Origin: Schmidtea polychroa
Taxonomy: Eukaryota
Length of the DNA stretch: 64,000 bases
Direction of reading: 5' to 3'
Assembly (NCBI GenBank): GCA_044892525.1
Contig: CM097885.1
Location: 25,112,001-25,176,000 of the forward strand
Shown: piece after piece, positions 10,155 to 34,828 of the stretch
Position numbering within the stretch: the stretch's first letter is position 1
How the letters are laid out: every line of letters begins with the position of its first letter
Notes under the pieces: generated by a model
Seen by the model: only the letters and a program-made list of their open reading frames with translations
Database searches by the model: none
What the model was told of the DNA's origin: nothing
Position numbers and translations under genes: made by a program

Positions 10155-12400
10155 AGTAGGTAGTTAGTAGCTCCCTGCCGCAATTACCCTCCCCCGGGGG
10201 GGGTCTGCGGCAACTTTTGATTACGCAATTTTTCAGACTATAGTGAGGGGGTCTCGATGGTCCTGGGATTTTCAATACAAAAAATTTTTTTCAATACAAA
10301 AACGATGGTCCTGGGATTTTCAATACAAAAAAATTTTTCAATACAAAAAGCTGGTCTCAATAAAAAAGCATGGAATTTTCACACTATAGTGAGGTGGGTC
10401 TCGATGGTCCTGGGAATTTCAATACAAAAATCCGACTACCACTAAAAAGTATGGAATTTTTCACACTATAGTGAGGTGGGTCTCCTTGGTCCTGAGAACT
10501 TCAATAGAAAAAGGTGGTCTACACTAAAAAAGCCAAGGATTTTTCAGACTATAGTGAGGTGGGTCTCCTTGGTCCTGAGAATTTCAATAGAAAAAGGCGG
10601 TCTTCAATAAAAAAGCATGGATTATTCTGACTATAGTGAGGGGGTCTCCTTGGTCCTGGGATTTTCAATAGAAAAGGCAGTCTTCAATAAAAAAGCATGG
10701 TAATTTAAGGTCTCAGGATTTTTTCAATACAAAAAGGCGGTCTTCAATAAAAAAGCATGGTAATTTAAGGTCTCAGGATATTTTCAATACAAAAATCCGA
10801 CTATCAATAAAAAAGCATGGATTTTTCGAATTAAATTAAGGTGGGTCTCCTTGGTCCTGAGAAAAAGGTGGTCTACACTAAAAAACGTGGTAAATTTTTC
10901 TATTAAAGTAAATTATGGTCAAAATTTTTGAATTACAGTAAATTATGGCTCAAATTTTTGAATTACAGTAAATAATGGTTCTTAAAAATTAAATTACAGT
11001 AAATAATGGTCCAAATTTTTAAATTAAAGTAAATTATGGTTCTAAAAATTAAATTAAAGTAAATAATGGTCCTAAAAAATTAAATTAAAGTAAATTATGG
11101 TCAAAAATTTTGAATTACAGTAAATTATGGTCCAAATTTTTCAATTACAGTAAATAATGGTTCTAAAAAATTAAATTACAGTAAATTATGGTCAAAAATT
11201 TTGAATTACAGTAAATTATGGTCAAAAATTTTGAATTACAGTAAATTATGGTTCAAATTTTTCAATTACAGTTAATTATGGTCCTAAAAAATTAAATTAC
11301 AGTAAATTATGGCTCAAATTTTTCAATTACAGTAAATTATGGTTCTTAAAAATTAAATTACAGTAAATTATGGTCCAAATTTTTCAATTACAGTAATCAA
11401 TGGTTCTAAAAAAATTAAATTACAGTAAATTATGGTCCAAATTTTAAAATTAAGTAATCAATGGTAAAAAATTTTAATAAGTAAATTAAAGTAATAATTT
11501 TTAAATAAGTAAATTAAAATAATAATTTTTAAATAAGTAATGTAATAAGTAAATTAAAGTAAGATTTTAAAATTTATTAACAAATAATAGAAGGTGTTTG
11601 AGAATTGAAATTTTTTAATGAAATTTTTTATGAAATAATTTTTAAGTAATTTTTAATAGAAATTTTAATGAATTATTTTTCAATGGTAATTTTTAATGGA
11701 AATTTTTATGAAATATTTTTCAATGATAATTTTAGATGGAAATTTTTAAGATAACTTTTAATGAAAATTTTTATGAAATATTTTTCAAAGACAAATTTTA
11801 ATAATAATTCAACAACAAACCAACAACTTAGTAGCAACAACCAGTAACTTACGAACATGTATTAACAACCAGATACCTACAACTAGTTACTAACAACCGT
11901 CAACAACCAGCTAACAACCAGTTACCTGCTACGAAGTACTTACAACAATATACCAAACGCTATCAGTTAAGTACTTACAACTAGATACCACGTACTAACT
12001 AACTCTCAAACAACCAGATACCTACAACTAGTTACTAACAACCTGATACCAACTACTTACAACCAACATCAACCAGCTACTAAGCATTATCAACCAAGTA
12101 CCTACAACCACATACCAAGTACTAACAACTAAAAAAACCTACAACCAACTAGCTACCAACTACAAAGTACTTACAACCGACAACAACCAGCTAACAACTA
12201 ACTACCACCTAACAAGTACTAACAACCGACAACAACCAGGTACTATGCATTAATTACCAACTACCAAGTACCTACAACCAACTAGGTACTAGATACCAAG
12301 TAATTACAACCAACTAGGTACCAGATAAAAAGTACTCACAACCGTCAACAACCAGCTAACAACCAGATACCTACAAATAGATACTAGCAACCAGTTACCA
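10155..12400 (+). repeat. Left TIR of outer Polinton, built of tiered minisatellites (inner boundary approximate)
   Basis: C/G palindrome, ACTATAGTGAGGGGGTCTC units, ~30-bp GTAAATTATGG units, an AT tier and AC-rich units; mirrored at ~32795-34828. Confidence 0.85.
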
Positions 12401-15400: not shown

Positions 15401-15988
15401 AATCACAACCTAATAAAACGATATAATTATTATTGATTCATAACTGACTAATGTATTGCAATTTCCTTAAAAACATTGATATTTGACCAACATTACCCAT
15501 GTAAATATTCAAAAGATTCCCATCGAAACCCTTCCCTCATTAAAAGCAACCGACTATATCTTTCTTAAAATGAAATATTTCCCATATTAACCGACTATAT
15601 CCCCATTAAAAAATCATATATTCCCACCTTATCTAATCTCTCATTAAATCTAACCGACTATATCCCTTTAAAAATCATATATTCCTATCTTAACCGATTT
15701 ATCATTAAATCTCACCGACAATATCCCATCTTAACCGATCTCTCACCAAATATTTCTACCCTTTTAAACATCTATCCGATTATATCCCTTATTTTCCCTA
15801 AAGATTCCGCCCACTTGAGCCCTTTAATATATATCAATCCTCTTAAAATCCTCAGAGAAATTCAAAAATATGACTTTTAATTAATTGTTATAGAACCAGA
15901 CAAATAATAAGAGCCCATTAAAAGATCAAAATTCACTAAATTTTCTACAAATATTTACCATCAAATACTGGAGATGATATATATTGTT

Positions 15989-18900
15989 AGTAGGTAGATA
16001 GTAGCCCACGGGAACAATTACCCCCCCCCCCCCCGGGGGGGGGGGAGGGGTTTGTTCCCAAATTTTTATTACGCAATTGTTCCCAACTCATTTTTTTGCT
16101 TTCAGGGATTTTTGGTCCAAATTTTTTTTTATCACACTATAGTGAGGGGGTCTCGATGGTCCTGGGATTTTCAATACAAAAAATTTTTTTCAATACAAAA
16201 AGCTGGTCTACACTAAAAAAAGCATGGTAATTTAAGGTCTCAGGATATTTTCAATACAAAAAGCTGGTCTACACTAAAAAAGCCAAGGATTTTTCAGACT
16301 ATAGTGAGGTGAGTCTCCTTGGTCCTGAGAAATAAAGAGGTCTCGATGGACCTGGGATTTTCAATACAAATAAAATTTTTTCTATACAAAAATCCGACTA
16401 CCACTAAAAAAGCATGGAATTTTCACACTATAGTGAGGGGGGTCTCGATGAACCTGGGATTTTCAATACAAATAAAATTTTTCTATACAAAAATCCGACT
16501 ATCAATAAAAAAGCCAAGGATTTATCACACTATAGTGAGGGGGTCTCGATGGAACTGGGATTTTCAATACAAATAAAATTTTTCTATACAAAAATCCGAC
16601 TATCAATAAAAAAGTCAAGGATTATTCACACTATAGTGAGGGGGTCTCGATGAACCTGGGATTTTCAATACAAATAAAATTTTTTCTATACAAAAATCCG
16701 ACTACCACTAAAAAAGCCAAGGATTTTTCAGACTATAGTGAGGGGGTCTCGATGGTCCTGGGATTTTCAATACAAAAAAATTTTTTTCAATACAAAAACG
16801 ATGGTCCTGGGATTTTCAATACAAAAAAAATTTTTCAATACAAAAAGCTGGTCTACACTAAAAAAGCATGGTAATTTAATGTCTCAGGATATTTTCAATA
16901 CAAAAAGCTGGTCTACACTAAAAAAGCCAAGGATTTTTCAGACTATAGTGAGGTGAGTCTCCTTGGTCCTGAGAAATAGGTGGTCTACACTAAAAACGTG
17001 GTAAATTTTTCAATTAAAGTAAATAATGGTCCAAATTTTAAAATTAAAGTAAATTATGGTTCTAAAAATTAAATTATAGTAAATTATGGCTCAAATTTTT
17101 AAATTACAGTAAACTATGGTCCTAAAAATTAAATTACAGTAAATTATGGTCAAACATTTTAAATTAAAAAAAACAATGGTTCAAATTTTTCAAATACAGT
17201 AAATTATGGGTCTAAAAATTAAATTACAGTAAATTATGGTTCTAAAAATTAAATTATAGTAAATTATGGCTCAAATTTTTCAATTAAAGTAAATAATGGT
17301 TCTAAAAAATTAAATTAAAGTAAATTATGGCTCAAATTTTCAAATAAGGTAATAATGGTCCTAAAAAATTAAATTACAGTAAATTATGGTCCAAATTTTT
17401 AAATTAAAGTAAATTTAGGTTCTTAAAAATTAAATTAAAGTAAATTATGGTTCTAAAATATTAAATTACAGTAAATTATGGTCCAGATTTTTCAATTAAA
17501 GTAAATAATGGTCCAAATTTTTGAATTAAAGTAAATTTAAGTTCTTAAAAATTAAATTACAGTAAATAATGGTCCAAATTTTTAAATTAAGTAATCAATG
17601 GTAAAAAATTTTAAATAAGTAAATTAAAGTAATAATTTTTAAATAAGTAAATTAAAGTAATGTAATAAGTAAATTAAAGTAAGATTTTAAAATTTAATTA
17701 CAAAATAATAGAAGGTGTTTGAGAATTGAAATTTTTTAATGAAAATTTTTATGAAATAATTTTTAAGTAATTTTTAATAGAAATTTTAATGAAATATTTT
17801 TCAATGGTAATTTTTAATGGAAATTTTTATGGAATAATTTTTTACGTAATTTTTAATGGAAATTTTTATGAAATATTTTTCAATGATAATTTTAGATGGA
17901 AATTTTTATGAAATATTTTTCAATGGTAATTTTTAATGGAAATTTTTATGGAATAATTTTTTAAGTAATTTTTAATGTAAATTTTTATGAAATATTTTTC
18001 AATGATAATTTTAGATGGAAATTTTTAAGATAATTTTTAATGAAAATTTTTATGAAATATTTATCAAAGACAAATTTTAATAATAATTCAACAACAAACC
18101 AACAACTTAGTACCAACAACCAGTAACTTACGAACATGTATTAACAACCAGATACCTACAACTAGTTACTAACAACTAGTTACATGATACTAAGTAAATA
18201 CAACCACCTAACAAGTACTTACAACCAAAAACAAGCAACCAACCAGGTACCAGTTACCAACTACTAAGTACCTACAACCAACTAGTTACCTGATACCAAG
18301 TACTTACAACTAAATACTAACAACCAGTTACCTGATACCATATACCTACAACTAGATACCTACAACTAGTTACCAGGTACTAAGCATTAATTACCAACTA
18401 CTAAGTACCTACAACCAACTAACAACCACCTACCAAGTACTAAGCATTATCAACCAACTACTAAGTACCTACAACCAACTAGCTACCACCTACCAAGTAC
18501 TAACAACCAGTTACCAACTACTAAGCATTAATTACCTACAACTAGTTACTAACAACTAGCTACCAAGTACATACAACCAGACACTAAGCATTATCAACCG
18601 AGTACTAACAACCAAGTACAAGATACCTAGTACTGTCAACTAGATACCAAACACTTACAACCAGATGACCACATGAAATTATTGGTTAAATATGAAAATA
18701 AGGGTTATAATTAGTTGTTTAGTAAATTATGGTGTAAAATTAAGTAATAAAGCATAAATAGGTAAATTAAGGATAAGTAAATTAAAGTTAAAAAATTAAA
18801 TTAAAGTTAATTAAGGTCCAAATTTTAAAAATAAGTAATCAATGTTCTAAAAAATTAAATTAAAGTTAAATAAGTAAATTAAAGTAATAATTTTTAAAGA

Positions 18901-21900
18901 ATTTAATTAAAGTAATAATTTTTAAATAATTAATGTACTAAGTAAATTAAAGTAAGATTTTTAATTTTATTATCAAAAGATTGAATAACCACCAACTTTT
19001 TTGAGAAATGTAATTTATAATGAAAATTTAAATGGAATAATAATAATAATAATAATAAAAATAATAATAATTCAACAGTTACCAAAAATCGGTTACTGAT
19101 TATTTTTTAACTAGGTGCTAACAAATACTTACAACTAGATACCACGTACTAACTAACTCTCAAACAACCAGATACTTACAACTAACTACTAAATATTCTT
19201 CACTGTATTTTATGAAATGCTTTTTAAATTAATATTTTTTATACAGCTTCTATAATAATTTTAATTACAATCAGTAGAAAAACCTTTTCAAATTTAACAA
19301 AAATGATGATTTTCATCAAAAAACCACAACTCAATCACTTTAAAACACCACGTCATATTCAAAATAATTACAATGAAAGACTAATGAATTCTAATTTACA
19401 AAACATTCTTCTTTTAATTGATAACTTATTATTGCAATGTAAAAATCGCATTCAATAAATACTTATTGTTGATCAATTTTATTATATATACTCTGAGTTT
19501 ATCCGACAGGATGTTTTGACCCCCTAAGGGTACTGGTCGTAAGGGTATTAGTCGTAAGGGTACAGGTCGTAAGGGTACTGGTAGTAAAGGTACTGGTCGT
19601 AAGGGTATTAGTCGTAGGGGTATTGATCACTCTCAATCCCCACCTACTCATTAATTAGCTACCATGTACTAACCACTAGGTTTCAAACAACTAAATACTA
19701 AACACTTACAACCATGTACTAACAACCACCATCAAAACCCATCGAGAAATTAACAAATATCAACCTACAACTAGATACTTACAACCAGGTACCTGCTACC
19801 AAGTACTTACAACAAGATACCAAGTACCAACAATCAACTAACCACACATAAAAATAATAGCAATTAAATACAAAATATTCTTCATCACATACAATATCTT
19901 CTTATCAAAATCTAAAAAGTCAATCAGATACCAACTACCAAGTACCAAGTACTAACAACCAACTACCTAGAACCAACAACTATGTACTAACAAATTGATC
20001 TTTAAAAGAAAAATACTCTTCACTTGAAAAATTAGATGGAAAATTAATTGAACTCAAGGCATCAATAACTAGGTAAAAATTGATTAAATTATTGTAAAAA
20101 TTTAAAATATTCGAAATAAATATCATAAAAATTTAATTAATGGACAGGAAAAAATTCTAGTCATCAAGTAAATAAAAAAATATTGATCATTCAAGTTGAA
20201 TCAACTAAGATAATAAATTAATAAGATAAGATCTAGTAGATAATTGATTTAGATTGAATAAATTAATTTAAATAAAATTAATTTAAATTATTTTTTTAAA
20301 AGTAATACATGTACTCAAATTGATTGACTGATTTCTCAATATATTCAAAAAAAATCAGTATAAATTCATTACAATTATCAAAGTCAGCAATCTACAATAA
20401 AAATAATTATCATAAAATTCCAAAAGAGACTAGATAACTAATGATAACATCTAATAAACCAGTAAATTTATTTAAATGACAATAATTGGTATATCCTAGT
20501 GAATTCTCCAATTTCTCATTTCCTCCCAAATATATCAATATGTAAAGATTGGTATTGTAATGATAAATACTTGTTAAAGATCATATATTTACCTCAAACT
20601 AACAAGATTCCTTAAAATCCCTTAAATGACTATATTTCTACCCTTAATTCATATTATTACAAATATTTCACTAAAATCATCTAAAAAGCATCAAATTTCC
20701 CTGAAATAACTCTATCTTTTAAGATTGATATTTTAATGATAAGTACTTGTTAAAGATCATATATTCCCCTCAGACTAATAAGATTGCTTAAACTCCCCTT
20801 TAAATGACTATAATTCTAACTTTAATTCCTATTATCATACATGTTTCACTATTGATAAAACCGGTTATAATTAACTTTTTGTTAATCACTGTACTCGAAA
20901 TTTAAAATAAATATAACTGACTAGGTCCCATTAAAAGATTAAATTTATCCATCCAATAAAATATATTTCTTCAAATGATCATTTTTACCAATATTCAACC
21001 GATTTAATTACTAATTAAAATCAAGATTTCTTCCAATAAAGATCAATTTTATTTAGTCGATGTTTTAAGTCCATATTTCTAAACTTTTGTCATTCTCCGC
21101 CTAAATAAAGATAAAAATAAATTAAAGTTGATATCAATCCCAATTATCTGTAAAGATTTCATTGTCAAAACCAAGTAAATCGATCATTATCCCTACTTAA
21201 TAAAACATTGTTCTAAATTAATTTACTATGCATTAATCACAACCTAATAAAACGATATAATTATTATTGATTCATAACTGACTAATGTATTGCAATTTCC
21301 TTAAAAAACATTGATATTTTACCAACATCACCCTTAAAAAATCATATATTCCCATCGAAACCCTTCCCTCATTAAAGTCAATCGACTATATCTCCCTTAC
21401 AATAATATATTCCCATCTTAACCCATCTCACATTAAATCTAACCGACTATATCCCCTTAAAAGATCATATTTTCCCCATCTTAACCGATCTCTCATTAAA
21501 CCTAACCAACAATATCCCATCTTAACCGATCTCTCATTAAATCTAACCGACTATATCCCTTTAAAAATCATATATTCCCATCTTAACCCATCCCTCATTA
21601 AATTTAACCGACAATATCCCATCTTATCTGATCTCTCAGCAAATATTTCTACCATTTTAAACATCTATCCGATTATATCCCTTATTTTCCCTAAAGATTT
21701 CACCCACTTGAGCCCTTTAATATATATCAATCCTCTTAAAATCCTCAGAGAACTTCAAAAATATGACTTTTAATTAATTGTTATAGGAACCAGACAAATA
21801 ATAAGAGCCCATTAAAAGATCAAAATTCACTAAATTTTCTACAAATATTTACCATCAAATACTGGAGATGATATATATTGTTTGATCATAATTCTTCAGC

Positions 21901-24001
21901 TATTCAACCAATCATTTTCAAGCAATAACAGCAAACTAAATTTCTGTATATCCTACAATAATTATCACGTAAATTTAAAGTCCTTGATAAAGTTAACTGG
22001 TTTCTTAGCTTATGTTTTTTAAAGTGCATCAATGTAAATATTCTTAGAAAATTATTTTTAGAAAATTATTGAAAAATTATTTAGTCAAATACATTACAAA
22101 GTCATCAAAAATCACTTAATTATTAACCTAATTGTCAATGAAATTAATTTTTATTTAAAAACTATTCAATAAAATACAACTAATTATCAAGAAATTAATT
22201 AAATTTATCAATTAAATTTATCAGTCAACATGAAAGTTTTAGAAAATTGTTCAATATCCTCATAAAAAATTTATCATATCACTTGATTATTGTAAAAACT
22301 CTAATTATTAACCTCATTGAAAATAATTTTTATTTAAAATTAAAAAAAAAAACAAGTCATTAAAAATACATCCAATATTCAAGAAATTAATTAAATTTAT
22401 CTTAGAATTAGCATTAAATTATTAAATATTCATTCAATAATCATGAAATCCACAAAAATAATAGAAATTTACAAAAATCAAAGAAATTCACAAAATTGAT
22501 AAAAATTCACATAATTCGCCATAATTTACTTTAATTTAATTTTTTAGAACCATTATTTACTTTAATTGAAAAATTTGAGCCATAATTTACTATAATTTAA
22601 TTTTTAGAACCATAATTTACTGTAATTTAATTTTTAGGCCCATAATTTACTGTATTTGAAAAATTTGAACCATTGTTTTTTTTAATTTAAAATGTTTGAC
22701 CATAATTTATTGTAATTTAATTTTTAGGACCATAATTTACTGTAATTTAAAAATTTGAGCCATAATTTACTATAATTTAATTTTTAGAACCATAATTTAC
22801 TTTAATTTTAAAATTTGGACCATTATTTACTTTAATTGAAAAATTTACCACGTTTTTAGTGTAGACCACCTATTTCTCAGGACCAAGGAGACTCACCTCA
22901 CTATAGTCTGAAAAATCCTTGGCTTTTTTAGTGTAGACCAGCTTTTTGTATTGAAAATATCCTGAGACATTAAATTACCATGCTTTTTTAGTGTAGACCA
23001 GCTTTTTGTATTGAAAAATTTTTTTTGTATTGAAAATCCCAGGACCATCGTTTTTGTATTGAAAAAAATTTTTTTGTATTGAAAATCCCAGGACCATCGA
23101 GACCCCCTCACTATAGTCTGAAAAATCCTTGGCTTTTTTAGTGGTAGTCGGATTTTTGTATAGAAAAAATTTTATTTGTATTGAAAATCCCAGGTTCATC
23201 GAGACCCCCTCACTATAGTGCGAATAATCCTTGACTTTTTTATTGATAGTCGGATTTTTGTATAGAAAAATTTTATTTGTATTGAAAATCCCAGTTCCAT
23301 CGAGACCCCCTCACTATAGTGTGATAAATCCTTGGCTTTTTTATTGATAGTCGGATTTTTGTATAGAAAAATTTTATTTGTATTGAAAATCCCAGGTTCA
23401 TCGAGACCCCCCTCACTATAGTGTGAAAATTCCATGCTTTTTTAGTGGTAGTCGGATTTTTGTATAGAAAAAATTTTATTTGTATTGAAAATCCCAGGTC
23501 CATCGAGACCCCTTTATTTCTCAGGACCAAGGAGACTCACCTCACTATAGTCTGAAAAATCCTTGGCTTTTTTAGTGTAGACCAGCTTTTTGTATTGAAA
23601 AAAATTTTTTGTATTGAAAATCCCAGGACCATCGAGACCCCCTCACTATAGTCTGAAAATTCCTTGGCTTTTTTAGTGGTAGTCGGATTTTTGTATTGAA
23701 AAAAATTTTTTGTATTGAAAATCCCAGGACCATCGAGACCCCCTCACTATAGTCTGAAAATTCTATGCTTTTTTATTGATAGTCGGATTTTTGTATTGAA
23801 AAAAATTTTTTGTATTGAAAATCCCAGGACCATCGAGACCCCCTCACTATGGTGTGATAAAAAAAAATTTGGACCAAAAATCCCTGAAAGCAAAAAAATG
23901 AGTTGGGAACAATTGCGTAATAAAAATTTGGGAACAAACCCCTCCCCCCCCCCCCCCCCCCGGGGGGGGTAATTGTTCCCGTGGGCTACTATCTACCTAC
24001 T
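15989..24001. mobile_element. Non-coding 8.0 kb Polinton deletion derivative nested in the outer element
   Basis: Ends AGTAGGTAGATAGTAGCCCACGGGAACAATTACCC and its exact inverse; 6-bp TSD ATTGTT (15983-15988, 24002-24007); TIRs ~15989-17331 and ~22518-24001. Confidence 0.92.
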
Positions 24002-25425
24002 ATTGTTTGATCATAATTCTTAAGCTATTCAACCAATCATTTTCAAGCAATAACAGCAAACTAAATTTCTGTATATCCTACAATAATTATCAAGTAAATT
24101 TAAAGTCATTGATAAAGTTGGTTTCTTAGCTTATGTTTTTTAAAGTGCATCAATGTGTAAATATTCTTAGAAAATTATTGAAAAATTATTTAGTCAAATA
24201 CATTACAAAGTTATCATCAAAAATCACTTAATTATTAACCTAATTGTCAATGATATTAATTTTTATTTAAAAACTATTCAATAAAATACAACGAATTATC
24301 AAGAAATTAATTAAATTTATCAATTAAATTTATCAGTCAACATGAAATTCTTAGAAAATTATTCAATATCCTCATAAAAATTTATCATATCACTTCATTA
24401 TTGTAAAATCTCTAATTATTAACCTCATTAAAAATAAATTTTTATTTAAAATTAAAAAACCAATCAATAAAAATACATCCAATTATCAAGAAATTAATTA
24501 AATTTATCTTAGAACTAACTTTAAATTATTAAATATTCATTCAATAAACATGAAATTTGCAAAAATGTTAGAAATCCACAAAAATAATAGAAATTTACAA
24601 AAATCAAAGAAATTCACAAAAATGATAAAAATTTATGAAAATGATAGATATCCACAAAAATTACTGATATTCACAAAAAATTATGGAAATTCATGAAAAT
24701 GATGGAAATCCACAAAAAACGATAAAAATTCACAAAAATGATAGAAATCTGCAAAAATAATAGAAATTTACTTGAATATTTACTAAAACCATCAACTCTA
24801 AAAATTATCAATGCCTTAAACAACAAATTTGTCTAAATAATCATTCAAATAAAAGCATTAAATACCTTTACCACTAACACCCTTACGACACGTTGAATGT
24901 GAGTAGTACCCTTGTGAGCAATACCCATAGGGGGACAGAATATTTTTTCGGATAAACTCCGAGTATATATAATAAAACTCATTCAAATTTATCATTGAAT
25001 CAGTAAAATTATCATAAATTTCGATAAAAATTCTAAAGTGGTAAGCAATGAAAAGACAATTATTCTTTAAACTTTGATAAAATTAACAATGGTGGTAAGA
25101 ATCATCATTAAAGTGAGGAAATTATTCATTACTCGATTCAAATGGGTGAAAATAATTGGTAGAATAATTCATTAATGGATCATGAGAGGTAAATACTGAG
25201 AAGTGGCATAGATAAAATGAAGGTTGATAAGAATGGAAATATATTAATTGAATTTATTTCATAAATTTAATAAAAAAAAACTTTTAAAACAAATATTTGT
25301 GGGGATGTTTTAAGTGAATAATTAATCAAAATCGGTGGAATATAATTGATTAAATATCGAGGGTGGGGGTTATAAGTGATTAATTAATGGAAAATCGAGA
25401 ATCGGGGGGAATATAAGTATATATA

Positions 25426-26209
25426 CTAAGATATTCTTGGTTTGCGTATACCAGTCGATTTTTCTCGATATTTTTGCTTATCTAATCCAAGTGAATTTGC
25501 CAAATTTTTATCAAATGTAACTTCGCAAATGTCATCATTCAAACTGAAGGTAAACATCAAATCTTTCACAATTTCCAAATTTTTAAATATGTGTGAACAA
25601 TTGAACTTTAAATATTTAAGTAAATCATCAAGTTTATCAAAATATAATTCATCAGCAAAGGTAAATGATTCTTCAACTTCATCATTATACGACAGAGATA
25701 TTTTGATTTCTTCTTTCACTATACTGTTTGCTTCAAATAGATTAAAACATAATAAATACTCCGTCTCCGTAACAATATTTTTCAACTTATTGCAACCCAT
25801 TCGTTTGGCATCTTCAATAGTTTCGAATGTTATTGTAAATGGTTTAAAATCACAACTGATATTTAATCCATCCTTGTAAAACATATAGCAATGCGAATCT
25901 AATATTTGATTCGGAATATGATATGTTTTATCATAATTACTGATAACAAAGATACCGCTACATGTTTTCACAATATTCCTTTTGAAATCAATATTACATT
26001 GACTATAAAATGGGAATGTGTTGTACACGAATGTAAAATCTTGCAGTGCAACTTCCCAGTCCCCATTTAAAGAAATCGGATTCTGGAGATTGACCATAAA
26101 TTTACTGGCTTGATTGTCTGGCTTGATTGTCTGGATGAATTAATGGGCAACTATTGCTCGGCAAAATAGTATAAAAATTCACTTTATTAGGTCTTTTGCT
26201 GATATCCAT
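25426..26209 (-). pseudogene. Polinton minor capsid (penton-like) protein; frameshifted and probably 3'-truncated
   Basis: Removing one copy of the 13-bp duplication GCTTGATTGTCTG (26108-26133) restores MDISKRPNKVNFYTILPSNSCPLIHPDNQASKFMVNLQNPISLNGDWEVALQDF, which matches the FYxxLPSNS...GxWEVAL N-terminus of this family. Confidence 0.75.
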
Positions 26210-26811
26210 GACGGGTTTTGATAACCATGCCATTTGACATAGTATTGTTTATCCTTACCGACCTTTTTAGTTTTCAATATTTTTTGAATTCTAAATACTT
26301 TTGGGGGAGGAATGACTTATAATTCCTGCTCATAAAATTTCCCTTGTACAATATTATTATCATTCTCATTGATGACATACATTACAGGATTCTGTTTAGT
26401 ATTTATTTTTGAAATTACAAAGACTTCATCACTCCAATTTGTATCAAAATTTTTAATAAATGGTGATGCACTAATTTTACTAATTCTAACATGGTCACCG
26501 ACTTTATATTTAGGTTTTGCAATTTGTACAGATTTCTTAGAAGTCAATGATGTTTTTGATGTAATATCAACCGGTCTCAATCCATTCAGTCCTCGATGTG
26601 ATGAATGATTATAACTTGTTATTATTTTCGGTAAAGCATTTACCCATTTTTTATTACCTTGATGCACGAACAATTTCTTTAATCGATCTCTCAATGTTCG
26701 ATTAAATCTTTCAACATGGGCAGCTTTGTATTGAGAATGTACCGAGTAGTGATTTATTTTCAGTTTATCGAGGATTTGCTTAACTTTGCTATTGTAGAAT
26801 TCTTTACCTAA

Positions 26812-26891
<80 letters not shown>

Positions 26892-27278
26892 CTAAATCTG
26901 TTTGCAAGTTATTAGGATGTCCATCTTTAAATAAAATATTAATTGCCTTGGACATTTCTTCTGCAGATTTTGCCTTGACTGGTATTGCTCGTGCAAACCT
27001 GCTGTATACATTAATACATGTTAAAATATATTTGTTCCCATTGTTAATTTTCGAATAAGGTATCATCTCCATCAAATCCATTTGCCATAAATCGTCAATA
27101 CCAAATGTTTTATACGCTCTTGTTGGAAATCTTTTCCGCATTGGTTTGTTCAAACTGTACGCAAGCTGATCTGATAACCACTTCTGGGTTTCTTTTTTCG
27201 AATTCGGAACTCTTTTGTTTAATTTTGCCACTCCACCGAAACCGGCTTCGTCTTCTGGGTTCGTCCAAATCTTCTCCA
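26179..27278 (-). pseudogene. Polinton retroviral-like (rve) integrase with C-terminal chromodomain; intron 26808-26891; premature TAA at 26317-26319
   Basis: DDLWQMDL, LQTDLG|KEF, VERFNRTL, YNHSSH, NWSDEVF and GKFYEQEL*; the same frame continues as FRIQKILKTKKVGKDKQYYVKWHGYQNPSWISAKDL. Confidence 0.92.
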
Positions 27279-27340
27279 TTACAACAAGAAGATTTAAAAT
27301 TAAATTTAATGTCGGGCAATGAAGGATTAGCACCCATTGT

Positions 27341-27865
27341 TTATGATTGATTTCCTACAACTCCACCTAATAATGATAATGCCAGAGGTATCAATGTACC
27401 AATAAATCCACCTTGTTGTTTATATATAATTTTCCTCATTTGCTTACGATTTTTATTATTTACTAAAGATATCAATGGTTTCCTATGTTTGCTCAATAAA
27501 TGCTTTTTTGATTTACTGATTTTAATTTTGCCTTTGACTACTTTAAGTATAATATTGAGTAAATCATCGACAACAAAATTTGGGAATGATTGCAATATAT
27601 TCATTCTTTTCATAATCGGGGCCTTTAACAATGCATTAAAAAATGGAAAACTGCGATGATTCTTAACTACTTTTTTACTGGTTTTACGGGTTTTACGTTT
27701 AGGTTTAGGATTTTTCGAAATAAGATTCATTGCAGAGAAATTTTCAGTTACAAGTTTCTTAGATGGTGTATAACTAGTTGTTGGTGGTACTTTTGGAACT
27801 TTAATACTCTTTCTAATACTTTTTCTTAATTTCCTAATATTTTTCACCCTTGCTTTTAGAAACAT
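27341..27865 (-). CDS. Basic Polinton virion-type protein with an adenovirus pX-like GG|F + hydrophobic tail
   Basis: Very K/R-rich; C-terminus KQQGGFIGTLIPLALSLLGG; lies between the ATPase and integrase. Confidence 0.7.
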   Translation of the reverse strand: MFLKARVKNIRKLRKSIRKSIKVPKVPPTTSYTPSKKLVTENFSAMNLISKNPKPKRKTRKTSKKVVKNHRSFPFFNALLKAPIMKRMNILQSFPNFVVDDLLNIILKVVKGKIKISKSKKHLLSKHRKPLISLVNNKNRKQMRKIIYKQQGGFIGTLIPLALSLLGGVVGNQS

Positions 27866-27883
27866 TATTATTCATAGAGGTTT

Positions 27884-28510
27884 TCAACTTTGTTTATAAA
27901 CCATGGCACCTTTTGGGTTGAAAATATCTGTTTTTACTCGTAAATCATCGGGACATTGTTGCGTGAAATCAAGAAATATATATCCATGAGGTATTTTTGT
28001 TGCATCTTGAAATGCACTGATAAGAAAATTACGATTGTTAGGGTATGCTTGGCGTGCAAGAAAATCAATCACTGTTGCATCTCTAGGATTCTTGAAAATG
28101 ACTAAATATTGTACATTTAAATTACGTGTTCGATGTGCCCCACCTTGATGAAATAGATTTTGAGTTATGAAAATAACTGTTACACCGACATGTCTGCTAA
28201 TCTTTGTAAATAAATTATTAAAATCTTTTTCTTTATTAGCTTCTTGATACAAATCATCGATAATAATGACATCACCTTTCTTTAATCGGCTGGACCAGTT
28301 TTTATCGAATCCCTTTACTATTTTCATGTTTTTTAATTTACAGAAACTTGATTGAGTTAATCCATGTTCTTCATCAGCACCCCTATGCCAATAAATCCTG
28401 TTGAATTTTGATTTGAATAAATCTGATTTTAATAATTTACAAACAAATAATGTTTTTCCACTACCACTCGGACCAACGATTTGGTATACTGCATCATTTC
28501 TTAATTCCAT
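27884..28510 (-). CDS. A32/FtsK-type DNA packaging ATPase
   Basis: Walker A IVGPSGSGKT, Walker B IIIDDL, family motifs LFTKISRH, IFITQNLF and YLVIFKNPRD; likely start MELRN at 28510. Confidence 0.93.
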   Translation of the reverse strand: MELRNDAVYQIVGPSGSGKTLFVCKLLKSDLFKSKFNRIYWHRGADEEHGLTQSSFCKLKNMKIVKGFDKNWSSRLKKGDVIIIDDLYQEANKEKDFNNLFTKISRHVGVTVIFITQNLFHQGGAHRTRNLNVQYLVIFKNPRDATVIDFLARQAYPNNRNFLISAFQDATKIPHGYIFLDFTQQCPDDLRVKTDIFNPKGAMVYKQS

Positions 28511-28613
28511 TTCAAAAAGTTTATAAATATATATGTATTTGTTTATATTCGATGATTTAATGAACTCGTGCTCAATTTGTATATAAAGACTAATTTTCAT
28601 AAATGATTTAATA

Positions 28614-29021
28614 ATGTTAGCAAATATAAATTATCGAGGAAATTTTAATGTATCGAATATGAGGTTCCCACCAGGGAAACCCCAGCAAATTATCGATAGA
28701 AGCGGGAAATATCCGATAATATTTTTCAAGACTGGTAAATGCAGAATTATGGGATGTAAGAAACCTTTGGATATTAATAAATTACAATATCGAATAAATA
28801 ATATTATAATCCAATCAATTACCGTTACTATGGATATGGGACATAGTATCAATCTATATAACATGTCGAAAAAATGTGATTGTATGTTTGAACTGGAATT
28901 ATTTCCAGCACTAAGACTATTAAAATATAACCCTATATGTGTCAACGTGTTTGCTAGTGGAAAGGTTGTCATGTTGGGGTTGAGAAATTTGGAGTATAGA
29001 GAATTTGTTGACAATGTTTGA
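28614..29021 (+). CDS. Divergent TATA-binding-protein-like protein; possible premature TGA, frame continues to 29051
   Basis: Two TBP-like repeats: IIFFKTGKCRIMGCK, and IQSITVTMDMGHSINL...FELELFPAL...VNVFASGKVVMLG (compare TBP YEPELFPGL...LIFVSGKVVLTG). Confidence 0.85.
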   Translation: MLANINYRGNFNVSNMRFPPGKPQQIIDRSGKYPIIFFKTGKCRIMGCKKPLDINKLQYRINNIIIQSITVTMDMGHSINLYNMSKKCDCMFELELFPALRLLKYNPICVNVFASGKVVMLGLRNLEYREFVDNV

Positions 29022-29110
29022 AATGAGATAATTTCATTGGTCGATTTCTAATTGGTTATTGATTGATTTAAACAAACGGTTTTTTGTTTAGGATTCATTT
29101 ATTCAACAAC

Positions 29111-29518
29111 ATGTACAAAATACCAAGCGCAGCAAATTTAATGAAAGATATTGACGACTACGGTAAATTTAAAATTTTTATTTTGACATTTTTTATATTT
29201 ATTATTTTAGAAAAATATATAGAAGTAATGCTCAATAGGATAAAATATTATTATCCTCAAATTGCAAAAATAACCAAAGACAGAGAACCTGAAATCATAC
29301 CGGATTTGATTTTCTATGCGACTCAAATTCGAATAATGGAGGTATTCCATCAATTTTTATGGGATATCAAGATTAATAGAACCATGAAAGAAATGGAGCC
29401 GGAGTATCAATGTATGTTCGGATGTTCATGCTGTGCCGATCGATATCGGCGATATGTCGAATGGGAGTTAGTGAAAACTCTGAGAAGGTTTCACTACTCC
29501 CGGATTGTATCAAAGTAA
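29111..29518 (+). CDS. Unknown Polinton cargo protein with a Cys cluster; predicted intron 29163-29210
   Basis: ATG at 29111; 48-bp GT-AG T-rich intron; CMFGCSCC motif; AATAAA after the stop. Confidence 0.6.
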   Translation: MYKIPSAANLMKDIDDYGKFKIFILTFFIFIILEKYIEVMLNRIKYYYPQIAKITKDREPEIIPDLIFYATQIRIMEVFHQFLWDIKINRTMKEMEPEYQCMFGCSCCADRYRRYVEWELVKTLRRFHYSRIVSK

Positions 29519-29552
29519 ATGTTTTGTATATAATAAACGTTTTGTATTATTT

Positions 29553-29585
<33 letters not shown>

Positions 29586-29860
29586 GTTGACTTTTAATAT
29601 AAAGTAAAACATTAATAGAAAGTTAATAATAATGATGATAATAATAATACTAATTAAAATAAGTTAAAACATCAATAATAATAGGAACATATATAATTTA
29701 AACATTAATAATAGGAACACATATATTTAATTTAATCATTAATAATAGGAACATATATATTTAATTTAAACATTAATAAAACATATATAATGCATGTTGG
29801 ATGCATGTTGGATGCAAATTTAACAAAGACGTATATTTTAAACAAAGCACACTGTAATTT

Positions 29861-29912
29861 GATTGGATGATTGGAAGTATAAAAACCCTGTAACATTTCA
29901 ATTTAATCATTA
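29861..29912 (+). promoter_or_regulatory. Pol II core promoter-like arrangement upstream of ORF 29919
   Basis: Two inverted CCAAT boxes (GATTGG), TATAAAA at 29878-29884 and an Inr-like TCATT about 30 nt downstream. Confidence 0.5.
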
Positions 29913-29918
29913 TTCACT

Positions 29919-30329
29919 ATGACCAAGAAAATTTCATGCACCGAAAAACCTAAAGAAATGGTACAACCAGTTCAAATGTTCCAAAATTACAAAATGTATT
30001 TTTTGAAAGAAGAAATCAATATGAAATTGGTTGCACCAGTCAAGCTAATTCCAACTAAATTTCAATTCTTATCCGGCACGCTTTCAATGATTGATGTCAA
30101 AACTATTGATGATGTTTTTAAACGGTTAGATTCGAATCTATCATGTAATCAACATGCATGGTTCAACAATAGATATGCAAGATTTTATGATGCTTTTGAT
30201 GAAATCAGTTTCAAAGAAAATGAAAATTGGTATATAACAATTGCAATCCAGGGATATAAAGTTGATAATAATGATGTATATTCTCCTATTTGGAAAATTA
30301 TGTCTGCTAGACTTTCACAAATATTTTAA
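29919..30329 (+). CDS. Unknown 136-aa cargo protein, possibly an OB-fold ssDNA-binding protein
   Basis: Intact ORF with upstream TATA and downstream AATAAA; C-terminal ITIAIQGYKV...PIWKI is reminiscent of viral SSBs (weak). Confidence 0.6.
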   Translation: MTKKISCTEKPKEMVQPVQMFQNYKMYFLKEEINMKLVAPVKLIPTKFQFLSGTLSMIDVKTIDDVFKRLDSNLSCNQHAWFNNRYARFYDAFDEISFKENENWYITIAIQGYKVDNNDVYSPIWKIMSARLSQIF

Positions 30330-30455
30330 TGTTATATTTAATAAATGTATTAGTCATATTTGTTTTTCTCTTTATTAATTGCAACATAAATGCAAATGAC
30401 ATGCAAATTTAACAAAGAAAATCTATAAACAAACTTAAAATATAGCTTTAAAGTG

Positions 30456-30832
30456 ATGAAAATGACTGCAGAAAAAGGTTAACATGATTAATTAATTACT
30501 GAATTATTTATTATTATTATTATTTAGAATTATTAATCAACTTTTTGTTGGAAAAATTAGCAGAAATAGCTGGTGTAAAAATTGAGGACATATTATCTGT
30601 TACAAATGCATTAAATATCGACTGGGTAGTTGAGAGTCAAGATTCAGGATTTGATGATCAGGAAGAAACTCAAGAAACCGATACTGAAGAAATTGATGAG
30701 GAAATCTTTGAACCTATAGATGAACCTATAGAGGAACCTAAAGATAATATTACGAATGATTGTATTGATCATGTCGTTGAAAATATAATGAAATGTGGAG
30801 ATGACGACTGCGAATGTGTTAATAAATTTTAG
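30456..30832 (+). CDS. Small highly acidic cargo protein; predicted intron 30478-30527
   Basis: Splicing gives MKMTAEKE|LLINFLLEKLAEI...DSGFDDQEETQETDTEEIDEE...; the intron supplies a start codon for an ORF that otherwise begins at TTG. Confidence 0.6.
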
Positions 30833-30946
30833 TTAATTATTGTTTGTAAATTTATTTAAAATAACTATATTAATTTTTATTTAAAAATCAAAATAACTAG
30901 ATTAAATTTTTATTTAAAAATCTATTTAAAAAACAAAATAACTACA

Positions 30947-31467
30947 TTAATTTTTATTTAAAAATCGAGATATAACATACAAAATAGCAACACCTGTTGC
31001 AAGTTTTACATAGTTTTTAAACTTCATTTTGTGGTCGTCGATTTCTTTTGCATTTCGGGCCAATTGGTTCAATACACCCCATCCGCCATTGGCTTCTATC
31101 CATGGTGTAAACTTTGACTTGATTATCTAGGAAATAAATATTAATAAAATATAGAGTATAAAAGTATTACTTCTTGAGACCACTGATAATAATGTTCAGA
31201 GTCCCATAAACCTTTTTCGATTATAATCTTCATATAAGCGAACCCTACTAGTATTCGGGTCCACTTCATCTCATCGTCGCATAGGCAGTTAAAAATCCTA
31301 TGAAAATTGATTTTTCTCGTTTCGAGGCAATCGGAATTGAGCACATCCTCATAATCAATATGATTTCCTTCTATAATCTTTTCGGTCCGATCGACCAGGA
31401 AACTGAGGCTTTCCATAATCTTCTTGTTGATAAGTTCGCTTAAAAGATTTTCCATAAAATGAGACAT
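30947..31467 (-). CDS. Bcl-2-family protein, 158 aa; exons 31467-31171 and 31126-30947
   Basis: BH1-like DDEMKWTRILVGFAY; a 44-bp phase-0 GT-AG intron joins in frame to BH2 FTPWIEANGGW; C-terminal hydrophobic tail LATGVAILYVISRFL. Confidence 0.85.
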
Positions 31468-31572
31468 TTCTACAATATTTTAAAATATGATGTTTTATTT
31501 ATACTAATACCGTATGATTTTGATTGGTTGATAGACTATAAATGTAAAAGAAAGGTTTTGATTTGATACACC

Positions 31573-32075
31573 ATGAAAAATATATATTCATATTGCTAAT
31601 TATTATAACGAGTGTGTGCTCACACAATACAACAATAACAGTGGAGTCTTTTAATAAATCAATATGTGTTTGTCCGAATACAGTCAAGTTGATGGATATT
31701 TTATATATTCTCGACAAACCAAAGTGGTCAAAGCATCCAGGAAAAAGAATATCTCAAAGATTGGAGAATTTAGAAAACAGTTATGAACTATCATTTGCAT
31801 ATATACAAAATATAAAAATTAAATTGATCGATCATATTGAAGTTTTCAATAACTCTATTGTTGAAAATAAAAAGAATATGAAAATTATTGATAAGAAGCA
31901 TGATTATTTGTTAAAAAAGATCGAATTATTAGTAAGAGATATTCAAACAATCAAAGGATCAATAGAATATCTGAAAATCAATTCAACGTTACCAATTTCA
32001 AACAATATTGCTGCGAATACTAGTACATCAATATTTAGTTTACCTTTGCTAATTTTACATTATTTTATTGTTTAA
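31573..32075 (+). CDS. Secreted or surface coiled-coil glycoprotein with hydrophobic C-terminus; apparent 1-nt frameshift right after the ATG
   Basis: ATGAAAAATATATATTC is one base off the frame encoding KYIFILLIIITSVCS (signal-like); five N-x-S/T sites; heptad-like region; tail STSIFSLPLLILHYFIV. Confidence 0.55.
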
Positions 32076-32197
32076 ATAAATGTATGTTTTGTTGATTTGT
32101 TTAATAATACCCTTGTGACTTGTTGAGTGTGAGCAGTACCCTTGTGAGCATTACCCATAGGGGGACAAAATATTTTGTCGGATAAACTCGGAGTATA

Positions 32198-32291
<94 letters not shown>

Positions 32292-32480
32292 TAATAATAA
32301 TAATAATAATAGTGAGATGTTGAGTGTAACCAATACCATTGAACTCTTTGAAGGTTATTGAACCTCCATAGACCTTCGATGGTCTCAAATACTCACCATT
32401 CAAATACCTTTTGAATGAGCTATTAAATAATAAAAACCATTGGCGGGAACTCTGAGAATTTAAATTTAAAAAAATTTAGC

Positions 32481-32713
32481 ATGACTCATCGGATGAGTCA
32501 TATGACCTTGAATGAGGCACCGGATGAGTCATATGACCTTGAATGACCCATCGGATGAGTCATATGACCTTGAATGAGGCATCGGATGAGTCATATGCCC
32601 TTGAATGGGTCATCGAATGAGTCATATGACCTTGAATGAGTCATCGGATGAGTCATGGTCTTTGTTTCAATGACATTGGTGAGTCATATGTCTTTGTTTA
32701 AAATTTGACCTTG
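32481..32713 (+). repeat. 31-bp tandem array containing TGAGTCA and TGACCTTGA motifs
   Basis: About 5 units of CATCGGATGAGTCATATGACCTTGAATGAGG plus degenerate flanking units. Confidence 0.9.
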
Positions 32714-32794
32714 AAAAAAATTTTTAAATGGCGGGGGGTATGTCTTTGTCCCAGAGGGCCACTGGTTTAGTGGGCCGCTATCCCTCTACTTACA

Positions 32795-34828
32795 TGGTAG
32801 ATGGTAGCTAGTTGGTTGTAGGTACTTAGTAGTTGGTTGATAATGCTTAGTACCTGGTTGTTGTTGGTTGTAAGTAGTTGGTATCTGGTAGTTAGTTGTT
32901 AGCTGGTTGTTGGTTGTTAGTACTTGGTAGTTGGTTGGTTGTTAGCTGGTTGTAGCTAGTTAATGGGTAGGTGGTTGTAGGTACTTGGTAACTGTTTGTT
33001 AGTATCTAGTTGTAGGTACCTGGTTGATGTTGGTTGTATGTACTTGTTAGGTGGTTTAAGGTACTTAGTAGTTGGTAACTGGTTGTTGGTATCTAGTTGT
33101 AGGTATCTGGTTGTTAGTAACTAGTTGTAAGTACTTGGTAGTTGGTAGCTGGTTGTAAGTATCTGGTTGTTTGAGAGTTAGTATGTGGTATCTAATTGTA
33201 AGTACTTGGTAGCAGGTAATTGGTTGTAAGTATCTCGTTGTTTGAGAGTTAGTTAGTACGTGGTATCTAGTTGTAAGTACTAGGTATCTGGTAACTGGTT
33301 GTTAGTATCTAGTTGTAGGTATCTGGTTGATGTTGGTACTTGGTAGCAGGTAACTGGTTGTTAGTATCTAGTTGTAGGTACTTGGTAGCAGGTAATTGGT
33401 TGTTAGTAACTAGTTGTAAGTATTTGGTATCAGGTAACTGGTTGTAAGTACTTGGTAACAGATAACATGTTGTTAGTAACTAGTTGTAAGTACTTGGTAT
33501 CAGGTAACTGGTTGTTAGTAACTAGTTGTAGGTATCTGGTTGTTAATACATGTTCGTAAGTTACTGGTTGTTGGTACTAAGTTGTTGGTTTGTTGTTGAA
33601 TTATTATTAAAATTTGTCTTTGAAATATATTTCATAAAAATTTTCATTAAAAATTACCATTGAAAAATATTTCATTAAAATTTCTATTAAAAATTACTTA
33701 AAAAATTATTTCATAAAAATTTTCATTTAAAAATTTCAATTCTCAAACACCTTCTATTATTTCAACTTTTTGTTAATAAATTTAAAAATCTTACTTTAAT
33801 TTACTTATTACATTACTTTAATTTACTTATTTAAAAATTAATACTTTAATTTACTTATTTAACTTTAATTTAAAATTTTTTTACCATTGATTACTTAATT
33901 TTAAAATTTGGACCTTAATTAACTTTAATTTAATTTTTTAGAACCTTAATTTAGTTATTTGAGCCCATTCATTACTTTAATTAAAAATTTGGACCATTAT
34001 TTACTTTAATTTAATTTTTAGACCCATAATTTACTTTAATTTAATTTTTTTAGAACCATAATTTACTGTAATTTAATTTTTAGAACCAAAATTTACTGTA
34101 ATTTAATTTTTTAGAACCATTATTTACTTTAATTGAAAATTTTGGACCATTATTTACTGTAATTTAATTTTTAGAACCATAATTTACTGTAATTTAATTT
34201 TTTAGAACCATTATTTACTTTAATTGAAAAATTTACCACGCTTTTTTAGTGTAGACCAGATTTTTCTATTGAAATTCTCAGGACCAAGGAGACCCACCTT
34301 AATTTCATTCGAAAAATCCATGCTTTTTTATTGATAGTCGGATTTTTGTATTGAAAATATCCTGAGACCTTAAATTACCACTGTTTTTTAGTGTAGACCA
34401 CCTTTTTGTATTGAAAATATCCTGAGACCTTAAATTACCACTCTTTTTTATTGAAGACCGCCTTTTTGTATTGAAAATATCCTGAGACCTTAAATTACCA
34501 TGCTTTTTTATTGATAGTCGGATTTTTGTATTGAAAATCCCAGGACCATCGAGACCCCCTCGCTATAGTCTGAATAATCCTTGGCTTTTTTATTGAAGAC
34601 CGCCTTTTTGTATTGAAAAAAAAAATTTTGTATTGAAAATCCCAGGACCATCGAGACCCCCTCACTATAGTCTGATAAAAAAATTTTGGACCAAAAATCC
34701 CTGAAAGCAAAAAATTTGAGTTGCCGCAATTGCGTAATCAAAAGTTGCCGCAAAAAAAAAGTTGCCGCAGAGCCCCCCCCCACCCCCGGGGGGGGGTAAT
34801 TGCGGCAGTGGGCTCCTAACTACCTACT
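32795..34828 (-). repeat. Right TIR of outer Polinton
   Basis: Reverse complement of the tiered repeats at 10155-~12400. Confidence 0.85.

What the first reader, a model, noticed from the sequence alone, without database searches (positions are those of the whole stretch)
30947..31467. Hidden spliced Bcl-2 homologue in the Polinton
The ORF track shows only exon 1. A 44-bp GT-AG intron (31127-31170) joins it in frame to an exon carrying BH2 (WIEANGGW) and a hydrophobic tail anchor, giving an intact 158-aa protein. BH1 reads KWTR rather than NWGR; that Gly is known to matter for BH3 binding, so specificity may be atypical. Inference: a viral-style apoptosis modulator that keeps host cells alive.
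Basis: partly seen in the sequence, partly recalled or inferred. Interest (0 to 1): 0.9.

Follow-up and report, generated by a model that had tools for sequence, protein, structure and literature searches.

The report
Spliced host-derived Bcl-2 in planarian Polintons
A virus-like jumping element in a flatworm genome carries a two-exon gene derived from the host's own essential anti-cell-death gene, probably to keep its host cell alive, and this kind of cargo is already known from related elements in other animals.

Summary
Observation confirmed. A 44-nt GT-AG intron (31170-31127) joins two exons into 158 codons. They align without gaps, end to end, to planarian bcl2-1 (residues 40-126, 127-182). 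The intron sits at the same codon boundary in relatives only 30-45% identical, and both exons are under purifying selection. No spliced reads were obtained; fold prediction was inconclusive.

The gene lies in a TIR/TSD-bounded, internally deleted Polinton (10155-34828) and has at least 150 close copies.

One correction: the missing BH1 glycine is not the element's invention. Host bcl2-1, whose knockdown lyses planarians, also lacks it. The element copy lacks the host's BH2 intron, which suggests capture through mRNA and later gain of a new intron.

Best reading: an anti-apoptotic accessory gene; function inferred, not shown. Bcl2 cargo in Polintons/adintoviruses is published (PMC8502044), and this scan found the gene before on another copy in this genome (e1-7879924). 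New here: the identified donor gene and the intron history. Verdict: new member of a known kind, interest 0.42.

The parts
31171..31467 (-). Bcl-2 homologue, exon 1 (99 codons; degenerate BH3-like helix, BH1)
   Evidence: gapless to bcl2-1 40-126; Pfam Bcl-2 14.7 bits for the exon-1 ORF alone, below the 31.4 cut-off
31127..31170 (-). 44-nt phase-0 GT-AG intron, 16% GC
   Evidence: same position in divergent families; not seen spliced in RNA
30947..31126 (-). Bcl-2 homologue, exon 2 (59 codons plus stop; BH2 and tail)
   Evidence: gapless to bcl2-1 127-182; dN/dS 0.09-0.26
31255..31266 (-). BH1 core KWTR (no glycine; host bcl2-1 has RWSR)
31079..31102 (-). BH2 WIEANGGW, not followed by the intron that the host gene has at GGW
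30956..31012 (-). C-terminal moderately hydrophobic segment with basic flanks (probable tail anchor; inferred)
31497..31527 (-). CCAAT box (31527-31523) and TATAAAT (31503-31497) upstream of the ATG; possible host-type Pol II promoter (weak in AT-rich DNA, no chance control run)
10155..34828 (.). Polinton/Maverick element carrying the gene: matching inverted termini, 6-bp target duplication GTTATG, inserted in a hAT-type transposon; lacks PolB and major capsid
15989..24001 (.). nested related element with its own inverted termini and 6-bp duplication ATTGTT; no long ORFs seen in 19200-22000
26317..27279 (-). rve integrase with an 84-nt GT-AG candidate intron (26891-26808); ends earlier than in a related copy
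27341..27865 (-). basic, core-protein-like ORF (inferred from composition and position)
   Evidence: no Pfam hit
27884..28600 (-). A32-type packaging ATPase
   Evidence: Pfam Pox_A32 29.7 bits, above the 22.8 cut-off
28614..29021 (+). TBP-like gene
   Evidence: Pfam TBP 50.4 bits

Best explanation
A planarian Polinton ancestor captured the host's pro-survival gene bcl2-1 as a processed (mRNA-derived) copy, losing the ancestral BH2 intron and about 25 N-terminal residues. The lineage leading to this family and several others then gained a short AT-rich spliceosomal intron eight codons before the BH2 tryptophan. When an element is active, host Pol II transcribes the gene, the host spliceosome removes the intron, and the 158-aa protein anchors by its tail in the mitochondrial outer membrane. 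There it restrains Bak-type effectors as bcl2-1 does, so the cell survives replication and integration of linear element DNA (an E1B-19K-like role). SHOWN: gene structure in DNA, homology, selection, element context, absence of the host intron. INFERRED: mRNA capture, intron gain, transcription, splicing, localisation, anti-apoptotic activity. Odds: real spliced gene about 0.93; pro-survival given that, about 0.7.
For: Gapless, abutting match of the two exons to bcl2-1. P0007 = ACW83059.1 = bcl2-1 (supplement table of PMC4993586). bcl2-1 inhibition causes systemic cell death and lysis (passages of PMC6970515 and PMC4993586). All aligned element proteins share with bcl2-1 a 5-residue gap after BH1 and a glycine-less BH1; the other planarian paralogues aligned lack the gap. 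The host orthologue is the single top locus (86% and 91% to bcl2-1), in two exons split at GGW, a boundary conserved in animals (PMC8998228 passage). Related copies read through with X pass the Pfam cut-off (34.4 and 34.6 bits against 31.4), as does the intronless family (32.7). Purifying selection: window versus L058 dN/dS 0.06 (exon 1, dS near saturation) and 0.12 (exon 2); versus L055 exon 2 0.26. Variants shared by at least 3 copies have pN/pS 0.22 and 0.13; singletons 0.60 and 0.52. Exon 2 has no ATG upstream in its frame, so selection on it implies splicing.
Against: No transcript evidence. Both AlphaFold models were low-confidence (pLDDT 56.6 and 66.6) and their fold searches were inconclusive. 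Identity to bcl2-1 is only 23-27%, so function may have drifted. The tree is poorly resolved: element genes plus bcl2-1 as one clade is not rejected (p-AU 0.445) but not shown, and a long-branch host paralogue (L053) falls inside the group. The intronless family B is unplaced, so intron gain versus loss is not polarised by the tree. The BH3-like helix is degenerate and the tail only moderately hydrophobic. Only 25 of 39 close copies pass a strict intactness test, and this element copy is non-autonomous. Splice-site retention among those 39 near-identical copies (GT 39 of 39, AG 38 of 39) is weak evidence by itself. Polintons are piRNA-repressed in S. mediterranea (PMC8532177 passages).
Confidence: 0.63

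Rival explanations
1. The spliced protein is made but acts as a decoy or antagonist of host bcl2-1, or the intron-retained form (103-117 aa, no BH2) does, promoting death or release late in the element's cycle.
For: Low identity to the donor. In every parsed relative, read-through of the intron meets a stop before exon 2, so retention would give a BH2-less product, often with a hydrophobic end.
Against: No canonical killer BH3 motif (LxxxGD) in exon 1. The hydrophobic read-through tail follows trivially from T-rich introns, and its length and frame vary. BH2 and tail are conserved and selected.
Confidence: 0.1
2. It is a Bcl-2-fold protein redirected to a non-apoptotic job (autophagy, innate signalling), as some viral Bcl-2-fold proteins are.
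For: Glycine-less BH1; a Ser there alters BH3 selectivity in mouse Boo (PMC8998228 passage). Adenovirus E1B19K also binds Beclin 1 (PMC11209288 passage). N-terminus shortened relative to the donor.
Against: The donor has the same glycine-less BH1 and is essential for survival. BH1 Trp and Arg, BH2 and the tail are kept.
Confidence: 0.12
3. The many intact copies now serve the host: they are expressed in normal tissue and add to the apoptotic threshold.
For: [quoted passage not shown]
Against: Singleton variants are closer to neutral (pN/pS 0.52-0.60), as expected when selection acts during element activity and not after insertion. Host bcl2-1 knockdown is lethal in S. mediterranea, so any element copies there do not compensate; whether that species has such copies was not tested.
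Confidence: 0.1
4. There is no intron: the gene is a frameshifted relic, or exon 1 alone is the gene.
For: No RNA evidence. 44 nt is short. Gene callers in public data give only exon-1 products (P0001, P0002, P0008).
Against: Same boundary with GT...TAG in families 30-45% identical, lengths 39-63 nt in and out of frame; selection on exon 2; exact colinearity with intronless relatives.
Confidence: 0.05

Closest known systems
Schmidtea mediterranea bcl2-1 (ACW83059.1, UniRef C9WPR4; P0007)
   Same: Colinear over residues 40-182, glycine-less BH1 (RWSR vs KWTR), shared 5-residue gap, BH2 and similar tail.
   Different: Only 23-27% identical; the element protein is about 25 residues shorter at the N-terminus; the host orthologue here has one intron of about 2.95 kb at GGW, the element gene a 44-nt intron upstream of BH2 and none at GGW.
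Bcl2 accessory genes of adintoviruses (animal Polintons), PMC8502044
   Same: A Bcl2 homologue as accessory cargo of a Polinton-type element (section 3.2 read; three Bcl2 labels in supplementary maps).
   Different: No flatworm term was found in the main text or in the stored supplement, which was cut when stored; no donor gene or intron is described in the passages seen. Sequences were not compared, so common descent was not tested; independent capture is my inference from the planarian-specific donor.
BCL2-like domain of planarian Burro gypsy-like LTR elements (PMC6431247, section passages)
   Same: A planarian mobile element carrying a Bcl-2 domain; similar long-ORF matches are abundant in this genome.
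   Different: Part of a retroelement polyprotein, not a stand-alone spliced gene; very divergent, long branch, unplaced.
Viral Bcl-2 proteins of dsDNA viruses (adenovirus E1B-19K, ASFV A179L, fowlpox FPV039)
   Same: Captured Bcl-2 family gene in a dsDNA virus-like genome; E1B19K blocks Bax and Bak (PMC11209288 passages). FPV039 is a weak sequence hit (E 0.44).
   Different: Works-like comparison only; no orthology shown. That review has no occurrence of 'polinton' or 'maverick'.

Membership tests
Bcl-2 family (multi-domain) | Pfam PF00452 above the curated cut-off | tested here: met
   Met by relatives: L055 34.4, L058 34.6 (read through with X), L061 32.7 bits vs 31.4. The window's exon-1 ORF alone gives 14.7; the window's spliced product itself was not scored. 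A profile of window exons, relatives and the host orthologue hits Bcl-xL at E 2e-9.
Bcl-2 family (multi-domain) | BH1 with NWGR | tested here: not met
   KWTR: Trp and Arg kept, Asn and Gly not. Also not met by host bcl2-1 and by a Trichoplax member, so the motif is typical, not obligatory.
Bcl-2 family (multi-domain) | BH2 (W...GGW) | tested here: met
   WIEANGGW; aligns with Bcl-xL BH2; unchanged in 34 of the 35 copies with a full-length exon 2.
Bcl-2 family (multi-domain) | BH3 motif (LxxxGD) | tested here: not met
   Leu and Asp kept, Gly position is Val; argues against a Bax/Bak-type effector, not against the family.
Bcl-2 family (multi-domain) | C-terminal tail anchor | tested here: inconclusive
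   Kyte-Doolittle 1.21 over 19 residues; aligns with the bcl2-1 tail; localisation untested.
Bcl-2 family (multi-domain) | Helical-bundle Bcl-2 fold | tested here: inconclusive
   All-helical low-confidence models. Bcl-2-fold chains appear in the top 50 and span the model (5ua5 Z 5.2, rmsd 5.0, 91 aligned; 7jmt Z 5.9, rmsd 5.0, 101 aligned) but not above unrelated helical proteins.
Bcl-2 family (multi-domain) | Binds BH3 partners and blocks mitochondrial permeabilisation | not testable with these tools
   needs bench assays
Spliceosomal intron | GT-AG ends, frame restoration, conserved position | tested here: met
Spliceosomal intron | Removed from RNA | not tested
   No reads were laid on the locus.
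Polinton/Maverick | Terminal inverted repeats and 6-bp target duplication | tested here: met
   Termini at 10155 and 34828, duplication GTTATG.
Polinton/Maverick | rve integrase and A32-type ATPase | tested here: met
   ATPase above cut-off; integrase rve E 8e-6, below cut-off; chromo domain at the C-terminus in a related copy.
Polinton/Maverick | Protein-primed PolB and double-jelly-roll capsid | tested here: not met
   Absent from this copy, which is therefore a deletion derivative. A related copy (93.6% identical over 5.8 kb) is followed by a 427-aa frame resembling DJR-like clusters (atlas score 0.98; PF21738 in 15% of one cluster; no Pfam hit) and by an interrupted PolB.
Polinton/Maverick | Adenain-like protease | not tested
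   not searched

The most novel reading that the evidence does not exclude
Planarian cell-death control is under repeated siege by mobile elements: Polintons captured the essential survival gene bcl2-1 once, spread it through many families and hundreds of copies with a gained intron, and Burro retroelements carry a Bcl-2 domain too. Intact Polinton copies are switched on during differentiation or PIWI failure and measurably raise the apoptotic threshold of planarian cells, so that an element-borne gene shapes tissue turnover and regeneration. The intron would act as a switch between a protective form and a BH2-less form.
Probability: 0.12. Interest if true: 0.8.

Novelty: new member of a known kind. 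Interest (0 to 1): 0.42.

Why it matters
It gives a Polinton accessory gene a named donor with a known knockdown phenotype in an RNAi-tractable animal, so the idea that Polintons manipulate host apoptosis like true viruses becomes testable. It is also a clean case of intron turnover inside a virus-like element (host intron lost, new one gained and kept), which shows that these genes escape ORF-based annotation. The general idea of Bcl2 cargo in Polintons is already published, which limits the surprise.

Tried and rejected
RNA: no RNA holder was listed among 12 runs (no evidence either way), and no reads were laid.

Folds: job 1 (relative L058 read through with X, so with 15 intron-derived positions) pLDDT 56.6, pTM 0.30; job 2 (window exon 1, 20-row alignment) pLDDT 66.6, pTM 0.53. 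Searches gave no Z of 8 or more and no viral hit at E 0.001 or better. Inconclusive.

Remote homologues: exon 1 found only unnamed short ENA proteins (1, 1); none in phages or viral contigs. The atlas lead to PF00452 (score 0.91, recognition below the tool's threshold) is weak. P0007's top rank is partly circular because its orthologue was in the query; one search is fully circular and was discarded.

Dropped rows: of 17 loci L065 gave no parse and L063, L071, L076 were mis-parsed at the donor, so their intron lengths and exon-1 dN/dS were ignored; exon-1 dS against L055, L062, L067 was saturated. In one search, 11 of 13 loci parsed (L063, L086 did not). One search used the 32 and 35 of 39 copies with full-length exons.

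Rejected ideas: origin from Burro (not supported, unplaced); an element-specific BH1 change (the host has it); an intron inherited from the host gene (different position). No precisely intron-less copy of this family was seen among the loci fetched; L083 has a deletion that is not precise.

Papers: the primary bcl2-1 paper (PMC2835816) and PMC3324028 were not held, so the knockdown phenotype is cited second-hand. Searches for prior description. I found no paper on a planarian Polinton Bcl-2 in these listings, of which I opened only those cited; subscription papers and Repbase entries are not covered.

Full report
OBSERVATION. The feature is there as described. On the minus strand, exon 1 runs 31467-31171 (99 codons), a 44-nt GT...AG stretch of 16% GC runs 31170-31127, and exon 2 runs 31126-30947 (59 codons and stop), giving 158 aa in phase 0. 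Exon 2 has no ATG upstream in its own frame. Of 63 possible GT-AG pairs, the reported one scores best against the host protein (187; next 180 with the same donor; unspliced 107).

IS THE INTRON REAL? Three lines say yes. First, exon 1 aligns without gaps to residues 40-126 and exon 2 to residues 127-182 of S. mediterranea bcl2-like protein P0007 (E 3e-9 and 2e-10 for single comparisons), so the junction falls exactly where an intronless relative runs through. Second, the intron position is old. Subfamilies at 65-68% exon-1 identity have GT...TAG at the same boundary with lengths of 39-63 nt, one as a TTA microsatellite. Four more distant groups (30-45% identity; D, E, F, G) have unrelated 41-46-nt introns there (11 of 13 loci parsed). 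In every locus parsed, read-through of the intron meets a stop. Third, both exons are under purifying selection: dN/dS 0.06 and 0.12 against L058, 0.26 for exon 2 against L055; variants shared by three or more close copies give pN/pS 0.22 and 0.13, singletons 0.60 and 0.52. Against: no RNA evidence was obtained; and the retention of GT (39 of 39) and AG (38 of 39) in close copies says little, as they are 93-99% identical.

CONTEXT. The gene lies in an element with matching inverted termini at 10155 and 34828 and a 6-bp target duplication, inserted into a hAT-type transposon; a second element with its own duplication is nested at 15989-24001. Neighbours are an rve integrase, a basic core-like ORF, an A32 ATPase and a TBP-like gene. 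This copy has no PolB or major capsid. A related copy, 93.6% identical over 5.8 kb, continues into a DJR-like 427-aa frame and an interrupted PolB. So this is an internally deleted Polinton. Exon 1 has at least 150 matches at 88-100% identity (all 150 scored, of 2401 candidates); 25 of the 39 close copies fetched pass a strict intactness test. A further family (B, 143 aa) is intronless, shares the TBP-like neighbour and lies 4-6 kb from a listed PolB in 5 of 8 listed copies (only 91 of 8821 PolB candidates were scored). Polinton context is also seen for D (PolB nearby) and F (ATPase adjacent); it was not checked for E and G.

DONOR. The host appears to be a Schmidtea-like planarian: a single top locus encodes a protein 89% identical to P0007 over 141 residues. 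P0007 is ACW83059.1, listed as bcl2-1 in a supplement table of PMC4993586. Inhibition of bcl2-1 causes systemic cell death and lysis (passages of PMC6970515 and PMC4993586; the primary paper was not available). Element proteins and bcl2-1 share a 5-residue gap after BH1, which the other paralogues aligned lack, and a glycine-less BH1. The tree separates them from bok-1, bcl2-2 and L047 with only moderate support (86/97), includes a long-branch paralogue, and neither rejects nor shows one clade (p-AU 0.445). The host gene has one intron, at GGW, the boundary conserved across animals (PMC8998228 passage). Families A, B, D, E and F read through that point. The simplest history is capture through mRNA, then gain of a new intron in part of the element lineage; loss in family B cannot be excluded.

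BH1. The glycine is absent from host bcl2-1 (RWSR) and from the element families. A glycine-less BH1 can change BH3 selectivity, but here it is inherited from an essential survival gene and is no sign of an element-specific function.

FAMILY MEMBERSHIP. Related copies pass the Pfam Bcl-2 cut-off (34.4, 34.6, 32.7 vs 31.4 bits); the window's exon-1 ORF alone does not (14.7), and its spliced product was not scored. BH2 is canonical, BH3 degenerate, the tail moderately hydrophobic. Fold prediction was inconclusive. I file it as a divergent multi-domain Bcl-2 family member on sequence evidence.

MECHANISM. Most likely (0.63 overall): an accessory gene, transcribed by host Pol II (a CCAAT and a TATAAAT box lie upstream, without the TATAAAC seen before the ATPase and core-like genes, weak and uncontrolled, prompted by e1-7879962), spliced by the host, tail-anchored at mitochondria, restraining Bak-type effectors while the element replicates and integrates. 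All steps after gene structure are inferred; the link from linear DNA and integration breaks to apoptosis rests on general knowledge, not on a call. Rivals: non-apoptotic role 0.12, decoy or pro-death 0.10, host use 0.10, no splicing 0.05.

WHAT IS KNOWN. PMC8502044 (section 3.2 read, passages and stored supplement searched) reports Bcl2 and IAP homologues in adintoviruses, without flatworm terms in the text I could search; the supplement was cut when stored, so a flatworm example may be hidden there. Planarian Burro retroelements carry a BCL2-like motif (PMC6431247 passages). Viral Bcl-2 proteins such as E1B19K block Bax and Bak (PMC11209288 passages). Polintons are piRNA-repressed and desilenced in differentiation in S. 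mediterranea (PMC8532177 passages). An earlier report of this scan covered another copy in this genome and gave me the lead that the cargo was published; I checked it.

VERDICT. Real, intact, spliced on DNA evidence; new member of a known kind. The added value is the named donor with a known phenotype and the intron history across families. Interest 0.42. Most novel open reading: element copies tune cell death in normal planarian tissue (probability 0.12, interest 0.8).

Noticed in passing
window 26808-26891 (-): The integrase also holds an 84-nt GT-AG candidate intron made mostly of a TTA microsatellite; it is in frame, so ORF callers read it as poly-Ile. A longer version is in L080.
   Followed up: partly
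L040-L046 (G000:C4 89.9-90.8 Mb): Seven clustered Bcl-2 frames with canonical NWGR; L043 contains S. mediterranea bcl2-2 (P0010, 192 aa) letter for letter, whereas the bcl2-1 orthologue is only 89% identical. Unexplained: recent transfer, introgression, mislabelled entry or assembly artefact.
   Followed up: partly
L060, L064, L072, L075 and dozens of rows: Bcl-2 domain inside open frames of up to about 3090 aa, resembling the published Burro polyprotein; a second mobile-element class with Bcl-2 in the same genome.
   Followed up: partly
window 28614-29021 (+); L061:3394-3861: TBP-like gene in two Polinton families; TATAAAC boxes lie before the ATPase and core-like genes but not before the Bcl-2 gene. 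Noted earlier in this scan (e1-7879962).
   Followed up: partly
window 13719 (+), 19495 (+), 24959 (-), 32189 (-): A conserved non-coding motif (TATATA, then GAGTTTATCCG, then short AAGGGTA-type repeats) occurs four times in the element and upstream of the Bcl-2 gene in L058; possible promoter or small RNA.
   Followed up: no
window 15989-24001: Nested element with long inverted repeats (1084 nt, near-perfect) and its own 6-bp duplication; the outer element splits a hAT-type transposon (8955-9737 and 34832-35359).
   Followed up: partly
G000:C1:82532376 and 82538468; G000:C3:91615950 and 91620615: Some copies of the gene occur as close inverted pairs 5-6 kb apart, suggesting palindromic element derivatives.
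   Followed up: no
L081:924-3860 (+) and 4775-6724 (-): Two divergent protein-primed PolB genes face each other next to a related copy; one is interrupted by stops.
   Followed up: no
window 31548-32075 (+), 29111-29518 (+), 29919-30329 (+), 30503-30832 (+): Accessory ORFs flanking the Bcl-2 gene with no Pfam hit above cut-off; two have apparent counterparts in family B.
   Followed up: no
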